A stretch of 64,000 nt of DNA from the NCBI GenBank assembly GCA_043803805.1, contig JAZDJP010000031.1, positions 1,222 through 65,221 on the forward strand. Direction: 5' to 3'. Below are positions 8,392 through 38,800 of this stretch, in pieces; the first letter of the stretch is position 1, and every line of letters begins with the position of its first letter. The notes below the pieces were generated by a model. That model did no database searches. It saw nothing but the letters and a program-made list of their open reading frames with translations, and was not told where the DNA came from. This DNA comes from Planctomycetota bacterium. Its GTDB lineage: Bacteria > Planctomycetota > JAZDJP01. Made by a program: the position numbers and the translations under genes.

Positions 8392-9249
8392 ATGCTTCGC
8401 ATCGGCGATTATGAAGTAATTTCGATCGACGACGGGTTATTCCGCCTCGATGGCGGCGCCATGTTCGGGGTCGTGCCGAAAACGCTTTGGGAGAAAGTCG
8501 CGCCGGCCGACGGGAAAAACCGCATCCCGCTCGGGGTCCGGCCACTCCTGATTCGCGGCCGGGGGGAGACGGTTCTCGTGGACGCGGGCCTCGGCGACAA
8601 GGAGGACGCGAAATTCGATGGGTTTTTCTCCGTGGAACGCCCCCGGAAACTCATGACGGCGCTCGCGGCGGCGGGGGTGCGTCCGGCGGACGTCACCCGG
8701 GTGATTTTCACCCATCTCCATTTTGATCATGACGGCGGGGCGACCCGGCGGGAGGGGATGAAGGCCGTCCTTGTGTTTCCGAACGCCCGTCATCTCGTCC
8801 AGCGCATCGAATGGGAGGAGGCCACCCATCCGAACCGCCGCACCCGGGGGAGTTACCTTCCCGAGAACATCGGCCCGCTCGGGGAAAGCGGAAATCTTGA
8901 TTTGTTGGATGGGGACACGGAGATCCTGCCGGGGCTTCGCGTCCATGTCACCGGCGGGCACTGCCGGGGCCATCAGATGGTCTTTATCGAGGGTGGCGGC
9001 CGCACGGCCGCGTACTGGGGGGATCTTGTCCCCACGGCGGCGCACCTCCGCGTTCCCTACGTCATGGGCTACGACCTGTTTCCGATCGAGGTGATGGAGG
9101 GGAAGGAGGCGCTTCTCCCGCGCGCGGCGCGGGAGGGTTGGATCAACTTCTGGGCCCACGATCCCGCGATCGCGGCGTCGCTGTTGCGGGAGGAAAATGG
9201 AGAAGTGGTTCTTGGCGATGAAGTCAGTGCCGTGGCTCGTGGTTCGTGA
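8392..9249 (+). CDS. MBL-fold metallo-hydrolase
   Basis: HLHFDHDGG (HxHxDH) motif. The start is moved to MLRIGDYEV (8392), because 8344-8391 lies inside the repeat element. Confidence 0.8.
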   Translation: MLRIGDYEVISIDDGLFRLDGGAMFGVVPKTLWEKVAPADGKNRIPLGVRPLLIRGRGETVLVDAGLGDKEDAKFDGFFSVERPRKLMTALAAAGVRPADVTRVIFTHLHFDHDGGATRREGMKAVLVFPNARHLVQRIEWEEATHPNRRTRGSYLPENIGPLGESGNLDLLDGDTEILPGLRVHVTGGHCRGHQMVFIEGGGRTAAYWGDLVPTAAHLRVPYVMGYDLFPIEVMEGKEALLPRAAREGWINFWAHDPAIAASLLREENGEVVLGDEVSAVARGS

Positions 9250-9294
9250 CTCGTGGCTCGCAGAAAATCGGAAACGATAAACTGGAAGTCATGT

Positions 9295-9567
9295 ATGGGA
9301 ATTGGCAATCAGGGATCGCAAAATCATCAGGAAGGAAATCGCCCCTCACGGCACTACAACTCGCCTGTGTTTAGAACTGCGGCGATATTGGTGGCAATTG
9401 CCTTCCTTTGGTATGTGTATCACACTTTCAAGGTGGGTAAGGGGATCTGTGAAACGTGGTTCCAATTTTGTTTGGCGCTTGTGTTCTTGGCCTATGGCAT
9501 TGGTGGAAATAAAATTGCTGATCGGATTGGGGCTATATTGTTCCGGTGGCAATGGCCAAAACGATGA
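9295..9567 (+). CDS. Small two-TM membrane protein (orphan, AT-richer)
   Basis: The ATG at 9295 gives 90 aa with two hydrophobic helices (AAILVAIAFLWYVY, FQFCLALVFLAYGIGG). It is visibly lower in G+C than its neighbours. I recognise no homology. Confidence 0.35.
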   Translation: MGIGNQGSQNHQEGNRPSRHYNSPVFRTAAILVAIAFLWYVYHTFKVGKGICETWFQFCLALVFLAYGIGGNKIADRIGAILFRWQWPKR

Positions 9568-29046: not shown

Positions 29047-29286
29047 TTACCAGAAGTGCCGATTTGCGAACGCGTGACCGGATCCGTGTTTCAAATACCG
29101 CTCGAGATTTCGCGCTTTCTCGTCACTATCGAACCATACGGATGCGACCATTTTCCACGGGACGTATGGGGCGGTAAAAGGTGATTTCCCGGCGTTGTGT
29201 TCCCGCAACCGTTTTTCGATATCGGTGGTCAATCCGATGTAACGTCGGCTGGGGTGGGAGAGACTTTTCAGAAAGTAGACGAACAT
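29047..29286 (-). CDS. GIY-YIG nuclease-family small protein (UPF0213-like)
   Basis: MFVYFLKSLSHPSRRYIGLTTDIEKRLREHNAG matches the GIY-(x)-YIG ... R..EH motif. Start at 29286. Confidence 0.75.
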   Translation of the reverse strand: MFVYFLKSLSHPSRRYIGLTTDIEKRLREHNAGKSPFTAPYVPWKMVASVWFDSDEKARNLERYLKHGSGHAFANRHFW

Positions 29287-29413
29287 GGTGGATGGTTGAA
29301 GTTGTGCCCTGCTTCGCCATTTCCTGAATACGCAGACGGCTACGCAGGGCATTCTGCGTAGCCCTGCTCCGCCGTCCCTGAAGGCGCAGACGGTTCCGCA
29401 GGGCGAAGCAGAA

Positions 29414-29470
29414 TGGAGGCGGGGGGAATCGAACCCTCTACGACCGTTTCGCGTGAGTTGAACACGGCAG
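29414..29470 (-). pseudogene. Orphan tRNA-Ala/tmRNA-type 3' fragment (T-arm + acceptor 3' strand, no 5' half)
   Basis: The minus strand reads ...GAGGGTTCGATTCCCCCCGCCTCCA: T-loop TTCGATT, an acceptor 3' strand CGCCUCC with U70, and discriminator A73. No matching GGAGGCG 5' strand occurs within 400 nt. Confidence 0.45.
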
Positions 29471-29815
29471 GGCCAATCACGAATTCAAACGGTCCCGCAA
29501 CGTCACAACTTGGACAACCTCAAAAAGATAACGATTGCTTCCCTGTCGAGGGAAGGGCGGTTGTTGACGCCAAGGTGAATACGGACGAACTCCCGAAAAA
29601 CACAACAGACGCACAACGGGAACACAACAGGCGCACAATGGAATCGCCCACGATTCCCGCATTGCCGGCGGACCTCGCGGCCCTTGTTGCGATGTGGGAC
29701 AAGTTGCCCGCCACGGCCCGCCAGACGTTGCTGACGCTGGCCCAGCAACTGGCCGGGAAGTGATTGGAGGGAATATGCGTTTCGACTCATCAAGAGGGTT
29801 CCTGGGGGATTCTGG

Positions 29816-29877
29816 CATAGACCGCCAGTTTCCGCCATAGGCCGCCAGTTGGATATGTAGGGAATTGGCGGTCTATG
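29816..29877. repeat. Element-specific palindromic motif set CATAG(A/G)CCGCCA(A/G)TT / AATTGGCGGTCTATG (site A)
   Basis: Direct copies at 29816-30 and 29836-50, with an inverted copy at 29863-77. The same motif pair occurs at 36806-36848. Confidence 0.7.
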
Positions 29878-29930
29878 GAGTCCCAAAGGGTGCGGAATAA
29901 GCGGAAAAAGCGAATTAAGGGAGGTGGGCC

Positions 29931-30395
29931 ATGGATGAATCAAATATGAGTAATGAAAATGATATGAAAGAACAAGAACGGGTTTCTGATGCCAACCCGG
30001 CAAAACCAGCGGGGCGCGAGGGGAATCTTGTCCCGTGGAAAAAGGGCCAGTCAGGAAACCCCGCCGGGAGGCCAAAGGGCGTTCGGTACCTTTCCGAAAT
30101 CTATCGGGAACTTCTCCAAGAGGTTTGCCCATCCGACAAGCGAAAGCGGGTGTGGGGGGAAGTGATAGCCGAGCGGATGTTCAAGGAGGCCATCCACGGG
30201 AAACGGTGTATTCAGGCGGCGGCGGAAATTGCGGATCGTATAGACGGAAAACCGAGGCAGGCGATTGAGATTACGCCGCCTCCTGTGGAGAAGAAGCCGG
30301 AATACGACTGGTCAAGCATTCCGCTTGCCGATCGCATCGCCGTTTTGAGAATCCTAGAGAAATCCCAGCCGGTGGGGTATTTGCAAAATCGCTGA
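29931..30395 (+). CDS. DUF5681-like phage/plasmid protein
   Basis: The PWKKGQSGNPAGRPKG motif is the DUF5681 signature (from memory). GGAGGTGG SD; 154 aa. Confidence 0.6.
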   Translation: MDESNMSNENDMKEQERVSDANPAKPAGREGNLVPWKKGQSGNPAGRPKGVRYLSEIYRELLQEVCPSDKRKRVWGEVIAERMFKEAIHGKRCIQAAAEIADRIDGKPRQAIEITPPPVEKKPEYDWSSIPLADRIAVLRILEKSQPVGYLQNR

Positions 30396-30449
30396 TGTTT
30401 CTCTGCTTATCAACGAAGGGAACAGGAGCATTCGTCTCGGGAATGCCCT

Positions 30450-30477
30450 TTGACGCCCCCCACGCCCGGGGTAGAAT
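30450..30477 (+). promoter_or_regulatory. Candidate strong promoter TTGACG-N16-TAGAAT
   Basis: TTGACG at 30450-55 and TAGAAT at 30472-77. A GGGTAGAATG box recurs at 33517-33526 in front of the next cargo transcription unit. Confidence 0.45.
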
Positions 30478-30483
30478 GACCGA

Positions 30484-30712
30484 CGGTTTGAGGGACAGTT
30501 TCACAGGAGGTCTTATTGACCCACGCGTCACGTTGACGTAATCAACTCGAACACCAACGCAGGTCGTTGCCACTATCAAATCGCCAGTTTGAAAAGGGAG
30601 GCAGAGGCTTGTCTGTTGGTGCCCGAAAGGGCACCAGCATGATGAAGCCGCCCTCCCGAAGGCTCTGGCGAGCCTGATAGTGGGTGGTGGAGTCGGCTGG
30701 TGCTCTTTTTTG
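30484..30712 (+). ncRNA. Candidate ~220-nt structured RNA or leader of the cargo operon
   Basis: Lies between the promoter and a T-run (30706-11). Contains the hairpin GGTGCCC-GAAA-GGGCACC (30618-35), the hairpin GGCTC-TGGC-GAGCC (30661-74), and a closing helix GCACCAGC (30631-38)/GCTGGTGC (30696-703) followed by TCTTTTTT. Confidence 0.3.
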
Positions 30713-30761
30713 TTGTGGTGGTTGGTCAAATTGCCCTCAGGGGCTGGAAGGAGGTTGGTCA

Positions 30762-31010
30762 ATGTCCAAAATCGTTCAGGAGACAAAATGCACCTGCCGT
30801 GCCTGTGGGAACATTTGGTATTACGGTAAGGCCGAGGCGTTGGAGCAAGCAGGAAAACAAATGCAGCAACTTGGAAAGTCCATGGCGTGTTGCACCGGTT
30901 GCGCACCGGCCGCATTCCTGCCGAACCAGCAAGTAAAAGACCTTAACAAATGTCCAAAATGTAATTCAGGGGCAGTGGACAAACAGATTGTGAGGCACAC
31001 GGTTGAATAA
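30762..31010 (+). CDS. Small multi-Cys zinc-ribbon protein
   Basis: The ATG at 30762 follows GGAAGGAGG. 82 aa with CTCRAC ... CCTGC ... CPKC cysteine clusters. Confidence 0.55.
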   Translation: MSKIVQETKCTCRACGNIWYYGKAEALEQAGKQMQQLGKSMACCTGCAPAAFLPNQQVKDLNKCPKCNSGAVDKQIVRHTVE

Positions 31011-31230
31011 GGTCACCATTCCTTTCATCTGGGCCGTTCGTGTTTACCAAATTGTGGGGTCCCCGATTTCTCGAAAAATTGGCATAAACTGCCGTTTTTA
31101 TCCAACCTGTTCCGAGTATATGATTTTATCACTTAAAAAATACGGCGTGCTGACGGGTTTGAAAAAGGGGATCGCTCGCTGGTTTCGGTGTAGGCCGGAT
31201 AATCACCAAAGTTGCATTGATTACCCTTGA
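31003..31230 (+). CDS. YidD-like (PF01809, membrane protein insertion efficiency factor family) protein on a mobile element
   Basis: The CRFYPTCSEY core motif and the 75-aa length are typical of YidD. A TTG start overlaps the preceding ORF by 8 nt. Confidence 0.7.
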   Translation: MNKVTIPFIWAVRVYQIVGSPISRKIGINCRFYPTCSEYMILSLKKYGVLTGLKKGIARWFRCRPDNHQSCIDYP

Positions 31231-31323
31231 GCCATAGCAAATAGTGCAACGGAAGACGGCATAACGAAAGGAAGGAAGGTTACAAAGCAACCGCCCCCCA
31301 GGGCAAAACAGGAGGAACAAGCG

Positions 31324-32184
31324 ATGATGTCGAAACGCGTATCGGATAGGCTCGTGCGAGGAATCACGAGGTTTCAGCAGGTTCTTCTAGTTGCCAAAGA
31401 CCGCGACATAAACGAGGCCGACACGGTCTCCATCATCAAGGATATGCTGGCGGATATTTTCGGCTACGATAAATATCTCAATGTAACGAGCGAGTTTGCC
31501 ATCCGCGGAACCTTCTGCGACCTTGCCGTCAAGGTCGAAAACAAAGTGGAGTTCATGATCGAAGTCAAAGCGATCGGGCTTGAGTTGAAGGAAGGCCATC
31601 TACGCCAAGCGATTGAATATGGCGCAAACAACGGCGTTCCATGGGTTATCCTGACGAATGGCATGGCCTGGCAAGTGTACAAGATTCGATTTGAACAACC
31701 GATCAACTACAATCCCGTATGCGAGTTCAACTTCGCCGAACTCGACGCGAAGAATGAAGAGCATCAGGAAAAGCTTTTCATTATCTGCAAGGAAGGATTG
31801 GCCAATGACGCCCGCGAGGAGTTTCACAAGAAGATTATGACCGTCAACCGGTTTATGCTCGGTGCCATCATTCTCAGCGATGATGTTGTGGGCGTCATCC
31901 GCCGTGAACTCCGGAAACTGTCAGGCGGCGTTTTGGTGACACACGAAGAAATCGCGATGGTTCTCGAAAGCGAAGTCTTGAAACGTGATGTATTGGAAGG
32001 GGATGAGGCAACGAAAGCTCAGGCGCGAGTGCGCAAGTTGTACGGGAAAACGTCGCGGCGTCCACGAGAGACGGAGAGCGAGAAGGCCTCTGAGCAACCG
32101 CAGGATCAACTCAAGGAGGAAGCATCTTGCCCTGATAAACTTCTGAATCAAGACGCGCAGAAATCGGAACCGGAACAGAAATAA
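31324..32184 (+). CDS. PD-(D/E)xK protein resembling the type I restriction HsdR N-terminal domain (HSDR_N_2-like) with an acidic/lysine-rich tail
   Basis: FCDLAVKVENKVEFMIEVKAIG (D...ExK) and WVILTNGMAWQVY match my recollection of PF13588. The C-terminal ~80 aa are low-complexity and charged. Confidence 0.55.
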   Translation: MMSKRVSDRLVRGITRFQQVLLVAKDRDINEADTVSIIKDMLADIFGYDKYLNVTSEFAIRGTFCDLAVKVENKVEFMIEVKAIGLELKEGHLRQAIEYGANNGVPWVILTNGMAWQVYKIRFEQPINYNPVCEFNFAELDAKNEEHQEKLFIICKEGLANDAREEFHKKIMTVNRFMLGAIILSDDVVGVIRRELRKLSGGVLVTHEEIAMVLESEVLKRDVLEGDEATKAQARVRKLYGKTSRRPRETESEKASEQPQDQLKEEASCPDKLLNQDAQKSEPEQK

Positions 32185-32209
32185 AGACGCTTGCCCTGGG
32201 CAACTTTAA

Positions 32210-32482
32210 ATTGCCGGAAAGGGCGAGGGAGCCGATGCGCAATCTTTTATCGTCAGCTCGAATCTCAAGCGGCGTCACCTGACGCGAGAACAACGGGACG
32301 ATGTAATCCGGGGACTTCGTGAACAGGGAATGACGTTGCAGAAAATTGCGGGAGCGGTGGGGGTGAGTCTTAAGACGGCACATCGTGCAACAGATGCTTT
32401 GTCAAATGACAAAGGTGAAGTCCTGGGCGCGGACGGCAAAGTCCGCCCCGCGCACTACGCCTCACTACTGCGTGGGCAGTAA
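32210..32482 (+). pseudogene. ParB-like/HTH gene fragment lacking start and N-terminal domain
   Basis: The frame opens right after a TAA at 32207 with no start codon. It reads DAQSFIVSSNLKRRHLTREQRDDVIRGLREQGMTLQKIAGAVGVSLKTAHR. The NLxRRHLT + HTH arrangement is typical of phage/plasmid ParB-like proteins. Confidence 0.45.
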
Positions 32483-33369
32483 TCTCGTCTCACAAGTTCC
32501 TGCCCGATTTGTTTCCACGCTTCTTCTGGCGAAATGGGTAGTTCGAGTCCTTTAAATTCTCTCGTGGCAACCTCCAAAAACACAGTCTCAACCCGCTCCA
32601 TCTCTATCGCCTGTTCCTCCATGATAAAGGCAATCCCGTTTATAACCCCCGGGGCAAACGTTCCATCCGCAGGATCAAATCTTTTTTGTTTGCTCATTTC
32701 GCTGGAGAGTCCGCCCAAATTGTTCGGACCGTTAACGTCCAAATAACATGTCCATAAAAAGTATCCGAGGGCAGCATTCCACTTTTTTTCTTGCTGGAGT
32801 ATCTTTGCCTGTCCGAGCCTGACATTTCTGTAAAGTCCCCAGTTACCGTTTTTCACATGCTCCAACGACTCCATGTTCAACGAAGCCCACTTTGCGTCAT
32901 TTTCCTGCGGACTTGGATTTCCAGCAGCCGCCCATAGTTCGTCTATCTTTTTCTTCTGGTCTTCTGTGACAAGCACCTTTTTCTTGTCTGATGGCCGCGT
33001 GCGGACATAGATGTATTGTCCACATGACTTGCACTTACTTTTCCTCACGGGCCTTTTTTCGAGATTGGTTTTACAGTATGGACATGCTGACTCAACTGTG
33101 CCGATATGAGCATTCACCAAAGACATGAATTTTGCCCGCGCCTTCGCCTCTTTCACTTGGGTACGCCGATATGCCATCGCCACGAAAATCGGGAATAGGA
33201 ATGCAACGGTTGCCAGTGACATGCCTGTTAACGCCCCCCACCTGCGGGGTGTTTGAATTGCCACAAAAATGGCGAGGGTGAAGGAGGAAAACAACACAAG
33301 CACTATCGCAAGCAAACATCCACACCCTGAAGTTTCAGCGGACGGGTTCCGAGATAAGCCCTTGGGCAT
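32455..33369 (-). CDS. Two-TM, zinc-ribbon (CPYC...CKSC) protein with an unknown C-terminal domain
   Basis: Starts MPKGLSRN. TM helices CLLAIVLVLFSSFTLAIFVAI and MSLATVAFLFPIFVAMAY. This is the most AT-rich gene of the element. Confidence 0.55.
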   Translation of the reverse strand: MPKGLSRNPSAETSGCGCLLAIVLVLFSSFTLAIFVAIQTPRRWGALTGMSLATVAFLFPIFVAMAYRRTQVKEAKARAKFMSLVNAHIGTVESACPYCKTNLEKRPVRKSKCKSCGQYIYVRTRPSDKKKVLVTEDQKKKIDELWAAAGNPSPQENDAKWASLNMESLEHVKNGNWGLYRNVRLGQAKILQQEKKWNAALGYFLWTCYLDVNGPNNLGGLSSEMSKQKRFDPADGTFAPGVINGIAFIMEEQAIEMERVETVFLEVATREFKGLELPISPEEAWKQIGQELVRRDYCPRSSEA

Positions 33370-33495
33370 TAATATCACCCGGGGAGAGTCAGAAATGGCA
33401 TTATACTGTTCCTCTTTAAGTCAGGAAGGGAAATGGAACGGGGGGGCGACGCGAATGGCACGCTCCGAGGTTGTCTTCGCCGGGTGTGTATCTCG

Positions 33496-34593: not shown

Positions 34594-34809
34594 ATGGCTT
34601 CACAATGCCCCCCCAAGTTGAGAACCCCCGGCGTTATCGCCCGTGAGTTGGGCGAACCGCTACACCGCGTCGTGTACGTCTTGCGGACCCGGCCTTACAT
34701 CATGCCGTCGGCCCGAGCAGGCCGGTTTCGATTGTATGACTTGGATGCCGTGGCCATGATCCGGTACACGCTCAACAGCATGGATGCACGGAATGGAGGC
34801 CGCTCATGA
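34594..34809 (+). CDS. Small MerR/excisionase-type HTH protein
   Basis: GVIARELGEPLHRVVYVLRTR...GRFRLYDLDAVAMI. Its stop overlaps the next start (ATGA). Confidence 0.55.
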   Translation: MASQCPPKLRTPGVIARELGEPLHRVVYVLRTRPYIMPSARAGRFRLYDLDAVAMIRYTLNSMDARNGGRS

Positions 34810-36782
34810 TCACCGCCCGCGAAATGGCCTCCAGTTACATCAAAAAAGGCTGGGAGGTTGTGCGTATCCCCCCGCGCGAAAAGAGGCCGACTGAAGAAGG
34901 TTGGCCAACCCGAAAATTCACACCCGATGATTTCGCGGACGGCGACAACATCGGAGTCAAGACAGGTGACCCGTCCGGGGGGCTGGTGGACGTGGACCTT
35001 GACCATCCCCTGGCCGTCGAACTCGCCCATGAGTTTTTGCCGCCGACGGGGGCAACCTTCGGCCACGGCGATGGGCGCGACGTTTCTCCGGCCCATTGGT
35101 TGTATACATGCAAATCGCCCGGGCGAACCCACACATGGAAGGCCGCCAACGGCGCGATGCTTTTGGAGTTGCGGGCGACTGGCGTCCAGACAGTGTTTCC
35201 GGGATCAATCCATCCGTGCGGCGATTCCGTGGAATGGGTTGGCCGGGGCGACCCTGCCCCTGTGAAACGGGAGGATTTGGAAAGGGCCTGTGAGAATTTG
35301 ATCGCCGCCGTGCGGCAACGGTTGGGGGGAACGGCCATCCCTGCCCCGTCTGCCGCGCCGGCACCGGTTTTCCCGATTATTTCGAGCGACAGAAACTCTC
35401 TTTTGCGCCGGGCAGAAGCGTATGCATCGGCTGCAAAATCGGCAGTTGGGCCATCGAATGGGATTCACGGGGGGAGGACTGTCCAAGCGTTTAGTCTTGC
35501 CGGACACTTGGCCGCATTTTGTGACGGTGCGATGAGATTGACCGAAACGGAAATTCTGGAATTGTTGCGGACGCGGTGGAATCCCAGGAACACGCCGCCT
35601 CTGTCCGACGGCAAACTTGCCGCGACCGTTCATTCGGCGATGGTGAACGGTACGCCGCGAGCGGATCATCCGGGGAGAGAAAACGTCGCCCCGCCGACGG
35701 GGAAGGTTGCCCCCGCTACCAACCCGAAAATCTCATCAGATGGCCCCGTTCTTATCCGTCTTGCGGATGTCGCGGCAAAACCGGTCTCATGGGTTTGGGC
35801 GAATCGTATCCCGGCGAGGAAATTGTCGCTACTGGGCGGTGATCCCGATAATGGCAAAAGCCTTCTCACATTGGACATCTCGGCCCGCATATCGCGGGGG
35901 ATGGATTGGCCCGATAATTCCGGCTGCGCCGAGGTCGGTAGTGTGATCTTGCTTTCGGCCGAAGACGACGCGGCGGACACAATCCGGCCGCGTCTGGAAG
36001 CGGCTGGTGCGGACCTCGCGAAAATTCACATATTGGAGGCTGTTCGAGAACGCGACAAACCCCGACCGTTTTCTCTGGATCGGGATGTTGAACAACTGGA
36101 ACCCGCGATCAAAACGTTGCCCGATTGCCGGTTGGTTGTTGTAGACCCTGTTTCCGCCTATATGGGGGCCGGGACGGATTCCCACAAGAACACGGATGTC
36201 CGGCGGGTACTGGCTCCGCTTGCGGCCCTCGCGCAATCGTCCGGGGTGGCGGTCTTGGCAGTGTCTCACATGAGTAAAGGGCAGGGCGGGAAGGCCCTGT
36301 ACCGTTCGATGGGTTCGCTTGGGTTTATTGCGGCCGCCCGGGCGGCTTGGCTCGTGGCTCGTGACAAACACGACCCGGCCCTGCGGCTTTTCGTTCCGAT
36401 TAAGAACAATCTGGCCCCTGGGGGAGTCGCCGGCCTTTCGTATCGAATCGAATCCAGCGACCTCGAAATCCCGGCCCCCCGGATTGTCTGGGGCGGTCCG
36501 GTCGCGGTGACGGCCGACGAAATCTTGGCCGCCGAACTTGCGCCCTCGCGGGGGCACGTCCGGGAAGAGGTGGAAGAGTGGCTCGAAAATTACCTTTCAG
36601 ACGGCCCCCGGCCAGCGGGTGAAGTCTATCAGGCGGCGGAGGGTGCCGGGTTTCACAAGCGGACGGTGGAACGGGGGAAACAGGCCCTCGGGGTCCGGGC
36701 GATCCGGCAAGGCTTTGGCGATGGTGGCACTTGGGTTTGGGCGTTGAATCATCAGACGGCCTCCCAAGAGGTCGAGACATGA
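34806..36782 (+). CDS. Bifunctional primase-polymerase (Prim-Pol) N-domain fused to an AAA_25/RepA-like ATPase
   Basis: N-terminus YIKKGWEVVRIPPREKRPTEEGW...GLVDVDLD (PF09250-like). C-terminal half GGDPDNGKSLLTLD (Walker A), LVVVDPVSAYMG (Walker B-like). 658 aa. Confidence 0.8.
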   Translation: MITAREMASSYIKKGWEVVRIPPREKRPTEEGWPTRKFTPDDFADGDNIGVKTGDPSGGLVDVDLDHPLAVELAHEFLPPTGATFGHGDGRDVSPAHWLYTCKSPGRTHTWKAANGAMLLELRATGVQTVFPGSIHPCGDSVEWVGRGDPAPVKREDLERACENLIAAVRQRLGGTAIPAPSAAPAPVFPIISSDRNSLLRRAEAYASAAKSAVGPSNGIHGGRTVQAFSLAGHLAAFCDGAMRLTETEILELLRTRWNPRNTPPLSDGKLAATVHSAMVNGTPRADHPGRENVAPPTGKVAPATNPKISSDGPVLIRLADVAAKPVSWVWANRIPARKLSLLGGDPDNGKSLLTLDISARISRGMDWPDNSGCAEVGSVILLSAEDDAADTIRPRLEAAGADLAKIHILEAVRERDKPRPFSLDRDVEQLEPAIKTLPDCRLVVVDPVSAYMGAGTDSHKNTDVRRVLAPLAALAQSSGVAVLAVSHMSKGQGGKALYRSMGSLGFIAAARAAWLVARDKHDPALRLFVPIKNNLAPGGVAGLSYRIESSDLEIPAPRIVWGGPVAVTADEILAAELAPSRGHVREEVEEWLENYLSDGPRPAGEVYQAAEGAGFHKRTVERGKQALGVRAIRQGFGDGGTWVWALNHQTASQEVET

Positions 36783-36805
36783 GCACCAAAGGCCGCCAAA
36801 TCATC

Positions 36806-36848
36806 CATAGACCGCCAATTCCCATATACCGCCAAGTGGCGGCCTATG
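36806..36848. repeat. Palindromic motif pair CATAGACCGCCAATT / AAGTGGCGGCCTATG (site B)
   Basis: Same motif as site A (29816-29877). It lies between the replicase stop and the xis-like gene. Confidence 0.7.
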
Positions 36849-36897
36849 GGGAAAACTCTCGAAATCGTATGATTTTGGGCATTTTGAGGAAGAAAGG

Positions 36898-37161
36898 ATG
36901 GGGACTATGACGACTGACGCGACAGCAACGGCAGGGACAATGCCCCCCCGGATGCTTTACTGGAAGCGCGACCTTATGGAACGGTTGGGGGTGTCCCGTC
37001 GAACCTTGGAACGCATGATTTCAACCGGGGAAATCCCCCGCCCGGAAATCCGCCTTCGAGGCCGGGGGGCGTGGCGAACGGATACAATCACCGATTGGAT
37101 CGCGGACGGGTGCCCCAGGGTGACGGCGGCGGGGACGGTGAAAATAATTCCCTTGGCTTGA
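36898..37161 (+). CDS. AlpA/excisionase-family HTH protein
   Basis: LMERLGVSRRTLERMISTGEIPRP...WRTDTITDWI is typical HTH_17. Confidence 0.65.
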   Translation: MGTMTTDATATAGTMPPRMLYWKRDLMERLGVSRRTLERMISTGEIPRPEIRLRGRGAWRTDTITDWIADGCPRVTAAGTVKIIPLA

Positions 37162-37188
37162 TTACGACACTTGCGTATAATAAGGGGT

Positions 37189-37410
37189 ATGAATTCAACG
37201 GAGTTTAGAAAACGGATTAGAGCGATGCGAGCGGAACATGGACTTACTCAAGGGAAGTTTGCCGAGGCGGTAGGGGTGAACCGTCGGACAATCGAAAATT
37301 GGGAACTTCCCCGGGCGGTGCCCGGACATCCGGAGTTGATTCTTGAGGCGTTGGCGGCACGTTTGAAGAACTTCAAATCCCGGCCGGCCGGGGGGAGGGC
37401 CGAATCATGA
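37189..37410 (+). CDS. XRE-family HTH regulator
   Basis: LTQGKFAEAVGVNRRTIENWE. TATAAT at 37176-81 ends only 7 nt before the ATG, so the transcript may be leaderless. The stop overlaps the integrase start (ATGA). Confidence 0.65.
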   Translation: MNSTEFRKRIRAMRAEHGLTQGKFAEAVGVNRRTIENWELPRAVPGHPELILEALAARLKNFKSRPAGGRAES

Positions 37411-38699
37411 AACACGCCAATGTCGGGTTCTGGTTGTTCCAAACGAAGGACAGGAAAGGGAAATATCATCCCCGATGGCGCATCCGCTTCCTGGGTGCGG
37501 ATGGGAAGATGGCCTATGCGACGGGCTTTTCCGACAAGGGCGAAACGGAACGCCTGGCAAAACAACTGGCGATGGAAGCGGACGAGGTCCGCCGGGGCAT
37601 CCGCAAGGCCCCAGAGGTTTCGGATCGGGAATCCCTGCGGCCCATTCAAGAGCATGTTGCGGCCTATATTCAATGGGGCATGACACAAGGGGGGCGCGGC
37701 GGGCGGTCCTGGGCCGCGAAACATGAACACGAGGTCCGGACAATCCTTCAGTGGTGGGTGTCTTATCTCCACCTCGAAACCTTGCGGGATATTACGCTGA
37801 CACGGGCCGAAAAGGCCCTTCAAGAAAAGGCGAAAAATGACGGAGTTGGGGGAAAGCGGTTGAATCATTACGCGATTATGATTCGGGCCTTGGTCCGTTG
37901 GTGCAAGCGGCGGGGGTTTATCGAACGCGACCCGTTGGAAGGGCTTTCCAAGTTTGATAACACGGTGAAGGCCCCGCGAAGGCCGTTGAAGTTGGATGAA
38001 TTGGGAACGCTTCTGGCGAATGCCCCTCCGGGTCGAGCGATCCTGTACCGGATGGCGGTTGAAACGGGATTCCGCCTTTCCGAACTCGCGTCGTTGCGCG
38101 TGGGGGACGTGGATATTGAAAAGGGGCATGTCTTCCTGCGGGGGGATTTTGCGAAGAACCGCCGGGACACGTATCAACCCCTCTCCTCGGATGTGATCGC
38201 CCTTCTCCCCCACGTCACAACAGGGAGAAAGTTGGAAGATCAACTTCTTCCGGCGGCCTCCCCCACCCATGCTTCCCGTTTTCTGGAGTTGGATTTGGAA
38301 AAGGCGGGGATCACGAAGCGGAATTTTTTCGGGAAGATTGATTTTCATTCCCTGCGGGTGACGCATGTGAACATGGGGATTGAGTTGGGGTTTGACGTCA
38401 AGACCGCCCAAACCCTCGCCCGCCACCAATCCCCCGAAATGACGATGAATGTCTACGCCAAGGCCAACCCGGAACGGTTGCGGGCGGCCTCGGAAAAGAT
38501 CGGGAAAGCGGTGTCGGAAGCGGTGAAAAAACCGGAGAACAGTCGAACCGGAGTCAAACAGGGCGAATGGCGTCTTGCGGCGGGGGCGGAAAATCTGACG
38601 CAACCGGTTGCGCTGCCGGTGGCTTCCGGCAACGCTTATAAGAACGCGGGCGACGGGGCTCGAACCCGCAACCTTCGGATCGACAGTCCGATGCTCTAG
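37407..38699 (+). CDS. Tyrosine recombinase/phage integrase
   Basis: GFRLSELASLRVGDVD (Arg I), HSLRVTH, LARHQSPEMTMNVYAK (His/Arg II ... Tyr). The last ~18 codons are encoded antisense to tRNA-Asp. Confidence 0.9.
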   Translation: MKHANVGFWLFQTKDRKGKYHPRWRIRFLGADGKMAYATGFSDKGETERLAKQLAMEADEVRRGIRKAPEVSDRESLRPIQEHVAAYIQWGMTQGGRGGRSWAAKHEHEVRTILQWWVSYLHLETLRDITLTRAEKALQEKAKNDGVGGKRLNHYAIMIRALVRWCKRRGFIERDPLEGLSKFDNTVKAPRRPLKLDELGTLLANAPPGRAILYRMAVETGFRLSELASLRVGDVDIEKGHVFLRGDFAKNRRDTYQPLSSDVIALLPHVTTGRKLEDQLLPAASPTHASRFLELDLEKAGITKRNFFGKIDFHSLRVTHVNMGIELGFDVKTAQTLARHQSPEMTMNVYAKANPERLRAASEKIGKAVSEAVKKPENSRTGVKQGEWRLAAGAENLTQPVALPVASGNAYKNAGDGARTRNLRIDSPML

Positions 38700-38718
38700 C
38701 CAATTGAGCTACGCCCGC
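38645..38718 (-). tRNA. tRNA-Asp (anticodon GUC), CCA not encoded
   Basis: Folded by hand: GCGGGCG-TA-GCTC-AATTGGCTA-GAGC-A-TCGGA-CTGTCGA-TCCGA-AGGTT-GCGGG-TTCGAGC-CCCGT-CGCCCGC-G. Confidence 0.85.
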
Positions 38719-38800
38719 ATGAACGCCGCATCCCCGCGTCGGGGGAAACCGCCGGGCGGCGTCGAGGCGCCCGGGATGCGGCATCATAGCGGAATTCCGA

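What the first reader, a model, noticed from the sequence alone, without database searches (positions are those of the whole stretch)
30450..32184. Cargo module of the integrative element: promoter + structured RNA + Zn-ribbon + YidD-like + HsdR-N-like PD-(D/E)xK protein
Seen in sequence:
- A near-consensus promoter (TTGACG-N16-TAGAAT, 30450-77) is followed by about 220 nt with nested helices. These include a GAAA-tetraloop hairpin at 30618-35 and a closing 8-bp helix followed by a T-run at 30706-11.
- Next come an 82-aa multi-Cys Zn-ribbon ORF and a 75-aa YidD-like ORF that overlaps it by 8 nt (CRFYPTCSEY).
- After 93 nt there is a 286-aa protein with a D...ExK core (FCDLAV...MIEVK, ILTNGMAWQVY) and a charged tail.
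- All of this is markedly AT-richer than the host DNA.

Established knowledge: YidD is normally a housekeeping gene in the rnpA-yidD-yidC cluster. HSDR_N-type PD-(D/E)xK domains are nuclease folds. Cargo positions in integrase/primase islands are frequent sites for anti-phage systems.

Inference: this uncharacterised three-gene (+RNA) combination is a candidate novel defence or abortive-infection module. Alternatively the RNA could be a cis-regulatory leader.
Basis: partly seen in the sequence, partly recalled or inferred. Interest (0 to 1): 0.7.

Follow-up and report, generated by a model that had tools for sequence, protein, structure and literature searches.

The report
Island cargo: RNA leader, YidD pair
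A small mobile island carries, in one transcription direction, a strongly folded RNA leader, a conserved pair of tiny cysteine-rich genes (one a copy of the membrane helper YidD) and a separate restriction-like nuclease; the three are not one system, but the gene pair and its link to the orphan LOOT RNA family appear to be undescribed.

Summary
The proposed three-gene (+RNA) defence module is not a unit.

- **Nuclease (286 aa):** it belongs to a very large, highly conserved family of solitary PD-(D/E)xK proteins. None of 80 genome loci with a homolog has a Zn-ribbon or YidD-like neighbour.
- **Gene pair:** the 82-aa Zn-ribbon gene and the 75-aa YidD-like gene form a conserved, translationally coupled pair. 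The pair is intact in 83 of 90 loci from phage-like and integrative elements. What follows it varies: membrane proteins, nucleases, methylases, integrases.
- **LOOT RNA:** in 20 of those loci the pair lies downstream of LOOT RNA (Rfam RF03000). LOOT always sits directly in front of a same-strand gene, so it looks like a cis-acting leader.
- **Window RNA:** it is not LOOT and has no detectable homolog. It folds far better than shuffles (z about -5). It has two nearly isoenergetic folds, one of which is a long terminator hairpin plus U6 about 50 nt before the Zn-ribbon start.

Best reading: a mosaic cargo slot made of an attenuator-like leader, a Zn-ribbon/YidD-like cassette of unknown and probably membrane-related function, and an independent restriction-like nuclease. 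No known defence model matches the pair; the nuclease has one weak partial hit.

The parts
30450..30477 (+). Sigma-70-like promoter TTGACG-N16-TAGAAT. The inferred transcription start is about 30484.
   Evidence: The consensus scan scores it 10 of 12. By itself this is not above chance (6 sites found against 4.5 expected). No transcript data are available.
30484..30712 (+). Orphan structured leader RNA of about 230 nt. It is bistable: either a rod with a central GAAA hairpin, or two hairpins of which the second is a terminator.
   Evidence: Fold z-scores are -4.9 and -5.8. The rod has -100.6 kcal/mol and the terminator form -101.0 kcal/mol, with ensemble shares of 0.38 and 0.62. There is no Rfam hit, no LOOT hit and no homolog in 97 sources.
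30516..30536 (+). Six-codon mini-ORF (TTG ACC CAC GCG TCA CGT TGA) preceded by AGGAGG at 30504-30509. It is a speculative leader peptide ending 11 nt before helix arm 1.
   Evidence: Read directly from the sequence. There is no comparative support.
30547..30626 (+). Hairpin A, formed by arms 1 and 2. Arm 1 (30547-58) pairs with arm 2 (30615-26).
   Evidence: the repeat finder pair I3 and the MFE of 30540-30715.
30618..30635 (+). GAAA-tetraloop hairpin, formed by arms 2 and 3. This is the candidate antiterminator helix.
   Evidence: the repeat finder pair I4 and the folds.
30627..30711 (+). Terminator-like hairpin B, formed by arms 3 and 4. It has a 12-bp basal helix (30627-38 with 30696-707) plus inner helices, followed by U6 at 30706-11.
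   Evidence: the repeat finder pair I2, 13 nt and 92% complementary, and the MFE. The chained 1:2, 2:3, 3:4 arrangement occurs in 0 of 500 shuffles.
30762..31010 (+). 82-aa Zn-ribbon protein (Znr) with motifs CxC-xx-C, CCxGC and CPKC. It is the first gene of the conserved pair. The RBS GGAAGGAGG lies at 30748-56.
   Evidence: Homologs are 50-65% identical. The family has 285 clusters at 50% identity. Invariant Cys are C12, C15, C43, C44, C47, C64 and C67. There is no Pfam, PHROG or PADLOC family.
31003..31230 (+). 75-aa YidD-like protein of a mobile-element subtype with four Cys and the C-terminus RCRPDNHQSCIDYP. Its start overlaps the Znr stop by 8 nt.
   Evidence: Pfam YidD E=3e-18 and TIGR00278 at 61.9 bits. 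It lies directly after Znr in 83 of 90 loci, mostly overlapping by 8 or 11 nt.
31324..32184 (+). 286-aa solitary PD-(D/E)xK protein. It has an HSDR_N_2 domain (about residues 60-125), a conserved helical C-terminal domain and a disordered charged tail. It is an independent cargo gene.
   Evidence: Pfam. 6874 homologs were found, the top 120 at 62-80% identity. D66, E80 and K82 are invariant. The AF2 model has pLDDT 75, with weak Foldseek hits to restriction-nuclease folds. It matches phrog_17239 at E=9e-86.
32191..32203 (+). Weak terminator-like hairpin TTGCCC-TGG-GCAA after the 286-aa gene. It may mark the end of the transcription unit.
   Evidence: Consensus scan only.
29931..30395 (+). Context: the DUF5681 gene directly upstream of the leader.
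   Evidence: Pfam DUF5681 E=1e-12. Homologs occur near the pair in L124 and L126.
34806..38719 (+). Context: the island backbone. It comprises PrimPol+AAA_25 (34806-36782), HTH_17 (36898-37161), an XRE HTH (37171-37410) and a tyrosine integrase (37407-38699) abutting tRNA-Asp (38644-38719, minus strand).
   Evidence: Pfam and ARAGORN/Rfam.

Best explanation
The 1.7-kb stretch is the head of the variable accessory slot of an island of about 9.5 kb that carries an integrase and a PrimPol gene. It is a mosaic of three separable pieces read in one direction.

1. **Leader RNA.** A promoter is followed by an orphan leader of about 230 nt that most likely acts in cis as a transcription attenuator.
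   - Four arms can pair 1:2 plus 3:4. The 3:4 helix is a long hairpin followed by U6, which is an intrinsic terminator 50 nt before the Zn-ribbon start codon.
   - Alternatively arms 2:3 pair (the GAAA hairpin, extended into a rod by 1:4), which removes the terminator.
   - There is no room for another promoter, so the downstream genes can only be expressed by read-through.
2. **Gene pair.** A translationally coupled Zn-ribbon and YidD-like pair forms a conserved cassette of phage-like and integrative elements. It probably works as a small, Cys-rich, metal-binding two-protein complex at the membrane, derived from the YidD insertion-efficiency factor. Its role for the element is untested. My leading guess is that it helps or modulates membrane insertion of the element's own envelope proteins, which are over-represented next to it.
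3. **Nuclease.** A solitary PD-(D/E)xK nuclease of a widespread, highly conserved family moves independently of the pair. Here it is simply the cargo gene occupying the slot, plausibly a restriction-type nuclease.

**Shown:** the anatomy, the family assignments, the conservation of the pair, the independence of the nuclease, and the association with LOOT RNA in related loci. **Inferred:** the transcript ends, the attenuation mechanism, complex formation, and all biochemical functions.
For: **Mosaic, not a unit.**
- None of 80 genome loci with a homolog of the 286-aa protein has Znr or a YidD-like gene beside it. There is no DNA similarity outside the gene.
- The closest homologs (80% and 78% identity) sit in unrelated contexts.

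**The pair is conserved.**
- The YidD-like ORF follows Znr in 83 of 90 loci that have room for it. Five of the seven exceptions are copies of one element.
- Its start overlaps the Znr stop by 8 or 11 nt in most loci, and its C-terminal motif SCID(Y/F)P is nearly invariant.

**Variable cargo on mobile elements.**
- Downstream genes differ from locus to locus: membrane proteins, PD-(D/E)xK nucleases, an OLD-like ATPase, a reverse transcriptase, methylases and integrases.
- Neighbours of the pair contain a predicted TM segment in 33 of 90 cases, against 46 of 259 for other ORFs (p=4e-4, a crude test).

**The RNA.**
- Fold z-scores are -4.9 and -5.8.
- The two folds lie within 0.4 kcal/mol of each other.
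- The alternative arms were found independently by the repeat finder as I2, I3 and I4.
- The chained topology occurs in 0 of 500 shuffles.

**Analogy with LOOT.**
- 20 of the 93 Znr loci carry LOOT RNA upstream on the same strand.
- All 19 distinct LOOT copies have a long-range helix between the P2 loop and the 3' tail, followed by a U-run.
- In all 25 LOOT copies examined, a same-strand ORF starts 16-55 nt after the end of the model, whatever the gene.
- Among non-LOOT loci, only the window and L110 have a strongly structured upstream region.

**The nuclease.** D66, E80 and K82 are invariant. The fold hits are all restriction-nuclease-like but weak.
Against: - The window RNA has no homolog, so there is no covariation or conservation evidence.
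- The promoter match is not above chance, the host's promoter rules are unknown, and there are no transcript data.
- The terminator hairpin is unusually long (81 nt with internal helices), and the simple terminator scan did not flag it.
- About 70% of pair-bearing loci have no strongly structured upstream RNA, so an RNA is not obligatory for the pair.
- Six LOOT copies found from the RNA side in viral contigs are not followed by the pair.
- Nothing tests a membrane role. The TM enrichment rests on naive ORF calls and a hydropathy rule.
- The Znr model is low-confidence (pLDDT 64).
- The genomic neighbours of the 286-aa family are mostly housekeeping genes with few defence genes. Its cross-phylum identity of 60-80% is unusual for a defence gene, so a restriction role is only a guess.
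Confidence: 0.55

Rival explanations
1. One reading: the RNA, the Zn-ribbon protein, the YidD-like protein and the HSDR_N-like nuclease together form one novel anti-phage or abortive-infection system.
For: - All four lie on one strand between one promoter-like site and one weak terminator.
- They sit in the cargo position of an island.
- In related loci the pair is sometimes followed by other PD-(D/E)xK nucleases (L116/L087 type, L165).
- LOOT is followed by an HSDR_N_2 protein in L211.
Against: - The trio recurs only in the near-identical contig L088.
- None of 80 loci with a 286-aa homolog has the pair.
- The nucleases that follow the pair elsewhere are not homologous to this one, and most loci have non-nuclease cargo.
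- There are no PADLOC hits for the pair.
Confidence: 0.07
2. The RNA is a stable trans-acting product, either a small RNA or the RNA partner of a Znr/YidD-like ribonucleoprotein, and not a cis-acting attenuator. On this view the terminator simply defines its 3' end.
For: - Rfam types the positionally analogous LOOT as 'Gene; sRNA'.
- Both RNAs end in a helix plus a U-run.
- Canonical yidD lies beside rnpA, the gene for the RNase P protein (established knowledge).
- LOOT has several GNRA hairpins and conserved single-stranded motifs, typical of a tertiary fold.
Against: - LOOT precedes many unrelated genes at a fixed short distance, which is the pattern of a leader.
- Most pair loci have no structured RNA.
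- Neither protein has a recognisable RNA-binding domain.
Confidence: 0.15
3. The Zn-ribbon/YidD-like pair is a toxin-antitoxin, abortive-infection or superinfection-exclusion module. The YidD-like protein would perturb the membrane or the YidC/Sec pathway, and the Zn-ribbon protein would neutralise or sense. The structured leader would set the ratio of products.
For: - It is a translationally coupled two-gene cassette on mobile elements.
- It sits among superinfection-exclusion-type and restriction-modification-type cargo, including Ltp lipoproteins, methylases and a Type ISP enzyme.
- The YidD family was historically named a 'haemolytic domain' (from memory).
- A promoter, structured RNA, terminator and effector in that order resemble type III toxin-antitoxin loci.
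Against: - There are no PADLOC matches.
- The RNA has no tandem repeats.
- The Znr domain also occurs fused to many unrelated N-terminal domains, which is unlike a dedicated antitoxin.
- No toxicity data exist.
Confidence: 0.2
4. The 230-nt region is not a functional RNA. It is a DNA-level or incidental feature, such as the terminator of the upstream DUF5681 operon, a REP- or MITE-like palindrome, or a protein-binding or replication site.
For: - The sequence is an orphan with no conservation.
- The promoter call is not significant.
- L110 has an unrelated long palindrome at the same position.
Against: - There is no other copy in the 64-kb window, so it is not a dispersed repeat.
- The terminator lies 310 nt after the upstream stop codon.
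- The chained alternative helices are very unlikely by chance.
- The position matches that of LOOT in related elements.
Confidence: 0.15

Closest known systems
[quoted passage not shown] 2011, cited in PMC8082313)
   Same: - The HMM match is above both curated cut-offs.
- The N-terminal amphipathic segment is present.
- The CRFxPTCSxY motif is present.
- The size is about 75 aa.
   Different: - It is encoded on mobile elements.
- It is always coupled to an upstream Zn-ribbon gene.
- Its C-terminus is RC(N/R)xxNxxSCID(Y/F)P, with a fourth conserved Cys, in place of the KCHPxHPGG..P-type end of E. coli YidD (E. coli sequence recalled from memory).
- It is not next to rnpA or yidC.
- Gene callers usually miss it.
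LOOT RNA (Rfam RF03000; Weinberg et al. 2017, PMC5737381)
   Same: - It occupies the same position: after a promoter and directly upstream of the Znr/YidD-like pair or other cargo.
- It contains GNRA-capped hairpins.
- It ends in a long-range helix plus a U-run shortly before the start codon.
   Different: - The window RNA scores nothing against the Rfam model or my LOOT model.
- It lacks the GCCUAAAC and GCAUGGC motifs.
- Its architecture is a bistable rod or two hairpins, not four tandem hairpins.
- It is an analogue at most, not a member.
HSDR_N_2 / PD-(D/E)xK restriction-endonuclease-like proteins (JGI name: 'predicted type IV restriction endonuclease'; PHROG 17239)
   Same: - The D...ExK core is invariant.
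- Strand order and fold hits resemble the nuclease domains of DrdV and HsdR.
- It is a stand-alone gene without a methyltransferase, as in type IV enzymes.
   Different: - It has no helicase/translocase module (unlike HsdR) and no recognisable modified-base reader domain.
- Its helical C-terminal domain is unique and highly conserved.
- Identity is 60-80% across phyla.
- Its neighbours are mostly housekeeping genes, and in 15 of 80 loci a Kv-like K+ channel.
- Its activity is untested.
Terminator/antiterminator leaders (trp-type and erm/cat-type attenuators, riboswitch expression platforms)
   Same: - The four arms have mutually exclusive 1:2, 2:3 and 3:4 pairings.
- The 3:4 helix is followed by a U-run immediately upstream of the regulated ORF.
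- A short upstream ORF with a strong SD ends just before arm 1.
   Different: - No conserved aptamer, no regulatory codons and no homologs are present.
- The terminator stem is much longer than usual.
- The sensor, if there is one, is unknown.
Accessory or 'moron' hotspots of phage satellites and integrative islands (P4-like, PICI-like)
   Same: - The island has an integrase next to a tRNA, AlpA-type and XRE regulators, and a PrimPol-helicase replicase.
- An AT-rich variable slot holds nuclease and membrane-protein cargo.
   Different: - The island boundaries were not resolved, because no tRNA-Asp direct repeat was found.
- No capsid or packaging genes were recognised apart from a DUF5681 protein.
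- Satellite status is untested.

Membership tests
YidD (PF01809 / TIGR00278) | Profile match above the curated cut-off | tested here: met
   Pfam gives 65.8 bits against a cut-off of 27. NCBIfam equivalog gives 61.9 against 40.
YidD (PF01809 / TIGR00278) | Conserved CRFxP(S/T)CSxY core | tested here: met
   CRFYPTCSEY is present in the window, and the motif is kept in nearly all of the 66 distinct pair-linked homologs aligned, with a few conservative substitutions.
YidD (PF01809 / TIGR00278) | Housekeeping context (rnpA-yidD-yidC) | tested here: not met
   It is flanked by the Znr gene and island cargo. The same Znr linkage is seen in 83 of 90 loci.
YidD (PF01809 / TIGR00278) | Membrane association and enhancement of YidC-dependent insertion | not testable with these tools
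   This needs fractionation and complementation of a yidD deletion.
HSDR_N_2 / PD-(D/E)xK nuclease | Profile match above the cut-off | tested here: met
   29.8 bits against 25, E=7e-7, over residues 61-124. The margin is small.
HSDR_N_2 / PD-(D/E)xK nuclease | Catalytic D...(D/E)xK residues conserved | tested here: met
   D66, E80 and K82 are invariant in 18 and in 43 homologs.
HSDR_N_2 / PD-(D/E)xK nuclease | Restriction-endonuclease-like fold | tested here: inconclusive
   The AF2 model has pLDDT 75. The best Foldseek hits are DrdV, a putative restriction endonuclease and HsdR, but E is at least 0.02 and TM-scores are low. A profile search of PDB sequences found nothing.
Type I HsdR subunit | Nuclease domain fused to an SF2 helicase/translocase, with hsdM/hsdS partners | tested here: not met
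   The protein is 286 aa with no helicase domain. No hsdM or hsdS gene lies in the island.
LOOT RNA (RF03000), asked of the window RNA | Covariance-model score at or above the gathering score | tested here: not met
   There was no LOOT hit at gathering threshold or at E up to 10. My LOOT model R1 gave no hit in the window at E up to 10.
LOOT RNA (RF03000), asked of the window RNA | Conserved GCCUAAAC...GCAUGGC junction and four hairpins | tested here: not met
   The motifs are absent from 30484-30712.
Terminator/antiterminator attenuator | Hairpin plus U-run directly upstream of the regulated ORF | tested here: met
   The hairpin spans 30627-30707, U6 lies at 30706-11, and Znr starts at 30762.
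Terminator/antiterminator attenuator | Mutually exclusive alternative helix of comparable stability | tested here: met
   The two folds have -100.6 and -101.0 kcal/mol. The chained helices occur in 0 of 500 shuffles. This is computational evidence only.
Terminator/antiterminator attenuator | Conservation or covariation of both folds in relatives, and regulated read-through | not testable with these tools
   No homolog was found. Term-seq and a reporter assay are needed.
Known anti-phage defence systems (PADLOC 2.0) | Match of any of the three proteins to a defence-system model | tested here: not met
   Znr and the YidD-like protein have 0 families. The 286-aa protein has only a partial hit at E=0.002 to a type II methyltransferase model. 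Homologs of the pair also have none.
Type III toxin-antitoxin | Tandem-repeat RNA antitoxin upstream of the toxin gene | tested here: not met
   No tandem repeat lies in 30380-30800. Halves A and B are only 53% identical.

The most novel reading that the evidence does not exclude
Structured leader RNAs (LOOT in many elements, and an unrelated bistable RNA here) together with the Zn-ribbon/YidD-like pair form a previously unrecognised control module of phage-like mobile elements. In this reading the RNA gates, or physically partners with, a small metal-binding membrane complex. That complex would decide when the element's variable cargo (surface proteins, nucleases) is expressed or inserted into the membrane. 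LOOT would then be a cis-acting leader with a defined protein context and not an orphan sRNA.
Probability: 0.15. Interest if true: 0.75.

Novelty: new variant of a known kind. Interest (0 to 1): 0.5.

Why it matters
- **YidD.** YidD is a nearly universal but poorly understood small protein. A distinct mobile-element subfamily that is always coupled to a Zn-ribbon partner gives a new handle on its function. It also shows that public annotation systematically misses this overlapping ORF.
- **LOOT.** LOOT is an Rfam family with no known function. I am not aware of any reported gene association, though the source paper's supplement could not be read. Here it sits at a fixed short distance upstream of variable cargo genes, often the Znr/YidD-like pair, in phage-like elements. 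That makes a cis-regulatory role directly testable.
- **This window.** The practical message is negative. The apparent three-gene defence candidate is a chance juxtaposition in a cargo slot. The pieces should be tested separately.

Tried and rejected
**1. Trio co-occurrence.**
- tblastn and blastn of all island proteins and DNA against 80 genome loci holding 286-aa homologs found nothing beyond the gene itself.

**2. Homologs of the window RNA. All attempts were negative.**
- Rfam at gathering threshold and at E up to 10.
- nhmmer.
- All-against-all blastn of 74 distinct upstream regions.
- A single-sequence covariance model searched against 97 sources. The best non-self hit, at E=1.8, happened to overlap a LOOT copy and is not significant.

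**3. Is the window RNA a divergent LOOT?**
- Rejected. It scores nothing and lacks the LOOT motifs.

**4. Is it a dispersed repeat or MITE?**
- Rejected. There is no other copy in the window.

**5. Is it a tandem-repeat antitoxin?**
- Rejected.

**6. Island att sites.**
- No repeat of the tRNA-Asp 3' half was found at the left end.
- The tRNA/tmRNA-like fragment at 29411-29496 is not tRNA-Asp.
- The island boundaries remain unresolved.

**7. Solved structures.**
- Sequence searches found none for the 286-aa profile or the YidD-like protein.
- The Foldseek search with the low-confidence Znr model gave only generic Zn-ribbon hits such as the MCM N-terminal domain and HypA.

**8. Cultured phages.**
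- Znr is absent from them.
- The 286-aa family is present in only one, Thermus phage Riverbug.

**9. Is LOOT obligatorily linked to the pair?**
- Rejected. Six LOOT copies found from the RNA side in IMG/VR precede other genes.

**10. The 30-nt repeat 30443-72 / 33221-50 as a second copy of the promoter.**
- Not pursued. The second copy lies inside the 307-aa minus-strand ORF and may be a chance match.


Full report
**1. The observation**

- TTGACG-N16-TAGAAT lies at 30450-77.
- The hairpin GGUGCCC-GAAA-GGGCACC lies at 30618-35.
- A T6 run lies at 30706-11.
- The 82-aa Cys-rich ORF is 30762-31010.
- The 75-aa ORF is 31003-31230 and overlaps the previous ORF by 8 nt.
- A 93-nt spacer follows, then the 286-aa ORF at 31324-32184.

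GC falls to 0.49-0.55 across about 29-35 kb, against 0.61-0.68 outside.

The surrounding block is an integrative island. It contains:
- a DUF5681 gene (29931-30395);
- a 307-aa ORF on the minus strand;
- an HTH protein;
- PrimPol+AAA_25 (34806-36782);
- an HTH_17/AlpA-like gene and an XRE gene;
- a tyrosine integrase (37407-38699) abutting tRNA-Asp (38644-38719, minus strand).

I could not find a tRNA-Asp direct repeat at the left end. The exact boundaries therefore remain open.

**2. The three proteins**

- The 75-aa ORF is a YidD-family protein. Pfam gives E=3e-18, and NCBIfam TIGR00278 scores above its cut-off.
- The 286-aa ORF matches HSDR_N_2 narrowly (29.8 bits against a cut-off of 25). 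D66, E80 and K82 are invariant in 43 homologs.
- An AlphaFold model of the 286-aa protein (pLDDT 75) shows an alpha/beta N-terminal domain, a helical C-terminal domain and a disordered tail.
- Its Foldseek hits are all restriction-nuclease-like (DrdV, a putative restriction endonuclease, HsdR) but weak.
- The 82-aa ORF has no family. It is a Zn-ribbon-like protein with invariant C12, C15, C43, C44, C47, C64 and C67.
- PADLOC recognises neither member of the pair. For the 286-aa protein it gives only a weak partial methyltransferase-model hit.

**3. Is the trio a unit? No.**

- The 286-aa family is very large, with 6874 hits. The best 120 are 62-80% identical over the full length and come from many phyla.
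- A scan of one genome per GTDB species found 372 loci, including Methanothrix.
- None of the best 80 loci has a Znr or YidD-like gene beside the homolog. There is no DNA similarity outside the gene.
- The neighbours of these homologs are mostly housekeeping genes. Fifteen of 80 loci have an adjacent Kv-like K+ channel, and only a few have defence or mobile-element genes.
- The closest relatives (80% and 78% identity) sit in unrelated contexts.
- The trio recurs only on L088, a 1.9-kb contig of essentially the same element.

**4. The Zn-ribbon/YidD-like pair is the real conserved unit**

- Znr homologs were few in the word-indexed search. An exhaustive profile search found 285 clusters at 50% identity. 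Many carry the domain at the C-terminus of longer proteins with PH-like, L7/L12-C-like or transmembrane N-termini.
- Metagenome and IMG/VR scans gave 87 loci. Together with six loci fetched by exact protein look-up, that makes 93.
- An intact YidD-like ORF follows Znr directly in 83 of the 90 loci that have room for it. Five of the seven exceptions are copies of one element.
- Gene callers had usually not called this ORF.
- Its start overlaps the Znr stop by 8 or 11 nt in most loci.
- The subfamily has four conserved Cys and a nearly invariant C-terminus, RC(N/R)xxNxxSCID(Y/F)P. This differs from the E. coli YidD C-terminus as I recall it.
- Apart from the pair, nothing is conserved around it.
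- Neighbours include tyrosine integrases, serine recombinases, terminase-like genes, ParB-methylases, cytosine methylases, a Type ISP enzyme, an OLD-like ATPase, a reverse transcriptase, several unrelated PD-(D/E)xK proteins, Ltp-type lipoproteins and many membrane-anchored proteins.
- Predicted TM proteins are enriched among the immediate neighbours: 33 of 90 against 46 of 259 (p=4e-4). This rests on naive ORF calls and a hydropathy rule, so it is a hint only.
- The pair is therefore a cassette of phage-like and integrative elements, sitting at a variable cargo slot.

**5. The RNA in the window**

- Region 30478-30720 folds with z=-4.9, and the core 30540-30715 with z=-5.8. None of 200 shuffles is as stable.
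- It has no Rfam match.
- There is no other copy in the window and no tandem repeat.
- No homolog appeared among all fetched loci by nhmmer, blastn or a covariance model.
- Conservation and covariation therefore cannot be assessed.

Its internal logic is nevertheless striking. The repeat finder reports three inverted repeats that share arms:
- 30547-58 with 30615-26 (arms 1:2);
- 30614-24 with 30629-39 (arms 2:3, the GAAA hairpin);
- 30626-38 with 30696-708 (arms 3:4), followed by U6.

Further points:
- The fold containing 1:2 plus 3:4 has -101.0 kcal/mol. The rod fold containing 2:3 has -100.6 kcal/mol. Their ensemble shares are 0.62 and 0.38.
- Such a chain of three mutually exclusive helices occurs in 0 of 500 dinucleotide shuffles.
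- The 3:4 hairpin plus U-run ends 50 nt before the Znr start codon, which leaves no room for a separate promoter.
- This is the topology of a terminator/antiterminator leader.
- A six-codon ORF with an AGGAGG SD (30516-36) ends 11 nt before arm 1 and could be a sensor. That is speculation.

**6. LOOT RNA as a positional analogue**

- Aligning upstream regions of other pair loci revealed a conserved element that Rfam identifies as LOOT (RF03000), at 75-95 bits against a gathering score of 46.
- A model built from six copies finds LOOT on the same strand upstream of Znr in 20 of 93 loci. In 11 it is directly adjacent (46-153 nt). In nine, one variable gene lies in between, usually for a membrane-anchored protein.
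- In all 19 distinct copies, the apical part of P2 is complementary to the 3' tail just before a U-run. The sequence pairs change between copies while complementarity is kept.
- Searching from the RNA side, six true LOOT copies in IMG/VR precede other cargo: membrane proteins, an HSDR_N_2 protein, a NucS-like protein and another nuclease-like protein. They lie near terminase or serine-recombinase genes.
- In all 25 copies, a same-strand ORF starts 16-55 nt after the end of the model.
- LOOT thus behaves as a 5' leader heading variable cargo, not as a free sRNA. The pair is its most frequent but not its only downstream partner.
- Among non-LOOT pair loci, only this window and L110 have strongly structured upstream regions.
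- The main text of the paper that described LOOT does not discuss it, and its supplement was not available to me. I am not aware of a reported gene association for LOOT.

**7. Interpretation**

- The block is best read as a mosaic: an attenuator-like leader, then the Znr/YidD-like cassette, then an independently mobile solitary PD-(D/E)xK nuclease as the current cargo.
- For the pair I commit, with low confidence, to a small metal-binding complex at the membrane derived from the YidD insertion-efficiency factor. The role of YidD is summarised in PMC8082313, citing Yu et al. 2011. The complex may serve the element's own envelope proteins.
- Toxin-antitoxin, abortive-infection or exclusion roles are the main rivals.
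- For the nuclease, a restriction-type role is plausible. JGI names the family 'predicted type IV restriction endonuclease'; one cultured phage homolog is annotated 'restriction endonuclease'; and the family forms a PHROG.
- That role is not supported by genomic context, and the extreme conservation of the family is odd for a defence gene.

**8. Verdict**

- The central claim of a single three-gene defence module is not supported.
- The conserved Znr/YidD-like pair, its link to LOOT, and the bistable orphan leader are the points worth following up.

Noticed in passing
L087, L094, L102, L114-L117, L119, L121, L123, L127, L131, L132, L137, L144, L145, L150, L151, L158, L090; also L176, L182, L185, L193, L211, L214: LOOT RNA (RF03000) always lies 16-55 nt upstream of a same-strand ORF, whatever that gene is. 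It has a covarying helix between the P2 apical loop and a 3' tail followed by a U-run, which extends beyond the 121-nt Rfam model. This suggests a cis-acting leader of mobile-element cargo, not an sRNA.
   Followed up: partly
L001-L080 (for example L050:4755-5633, L052:4829-5548, L028:3226-3999): In 15 of 80 genome loci the 286-aa nuclease family sits directly next to a Kv-like K+ channel gene with a TVGYGD filter and an Arg-rich S4 segment. This is a recurrent two-gene arrangement with no PADLOC match.
   Followed up: partly
window 29810-29881 and 36800-36852: The motif CCATAGRCCGCCA occurs as two direct copies plus an inverted copy upstream of the DUF5681 gene. It occurs again as a direct plus an inverted copy upstream of the HTH_17 gene. 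These are likely shared operator sites of an island regulator.
   Followed up: no
window 29411-29496 (-): A tRNA/tmRNA-like 3' fragment (T-arm plus acceptor, GGGUUCGAUUCCCCCCGCCUCCA) matches the tmRNA model at E=3e-4. It is not related to tRNA-Asp and may be a remnant of an attachment site at the left edge of the AT-rich block.
   Followed up: partly
window 29047-29352 (-): A small GIY-YIG nuclease-domain ORF (Pfam E=7e-13) lies at the left border of the low-GC region.
   Followed up: no
window 32455-33378 (-); L139:3901-4206, L142:1759-2064, L174:1762-2574: The 307-aa minus-strand ORF has TM segments and a Zn-ribbon (CPYC...CKSC). It has partial homologs of about 39% identity next to the Znr/YidD-like pair in three other loci.
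   Followed up: no
L083:8001-8300 and 8563-9492; L086:1111-1674: The N-terminally extended Znr protein and the membrane proteins encoded just downstream share an N-terminal motif, LSDxDKxxIxEEEKERL.
   Followed up: no
window 30443-30472 and 33221-33250: A 30-nt repeat (80% identity, shared core ACGCCCCCCAC) covers the promoter-like site. It recurs inside the 5' part of the 307-aa minus-strand ORF and may be a chance match.
   Followed up: no
L083-L087 and most of L089-L175: Public gene calls in the five loci with annotations omit the YidD-like ORF, which overlaps the Znr stop. This small gene may therefore be under-annotated generally.
   Followed up: yes
L110:1040-1200: An unrelated long palindrome (a stem of about 24 bp enclosing about 90 nt; upstream-region fold z=-4.0 in the 74-locus screen, -2.9 for 940-1215 folded alone) lies upstream of the pair in a GC-rich locus. 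It occupies the same position as the window RNA and LOOT.
   Followed up: partly
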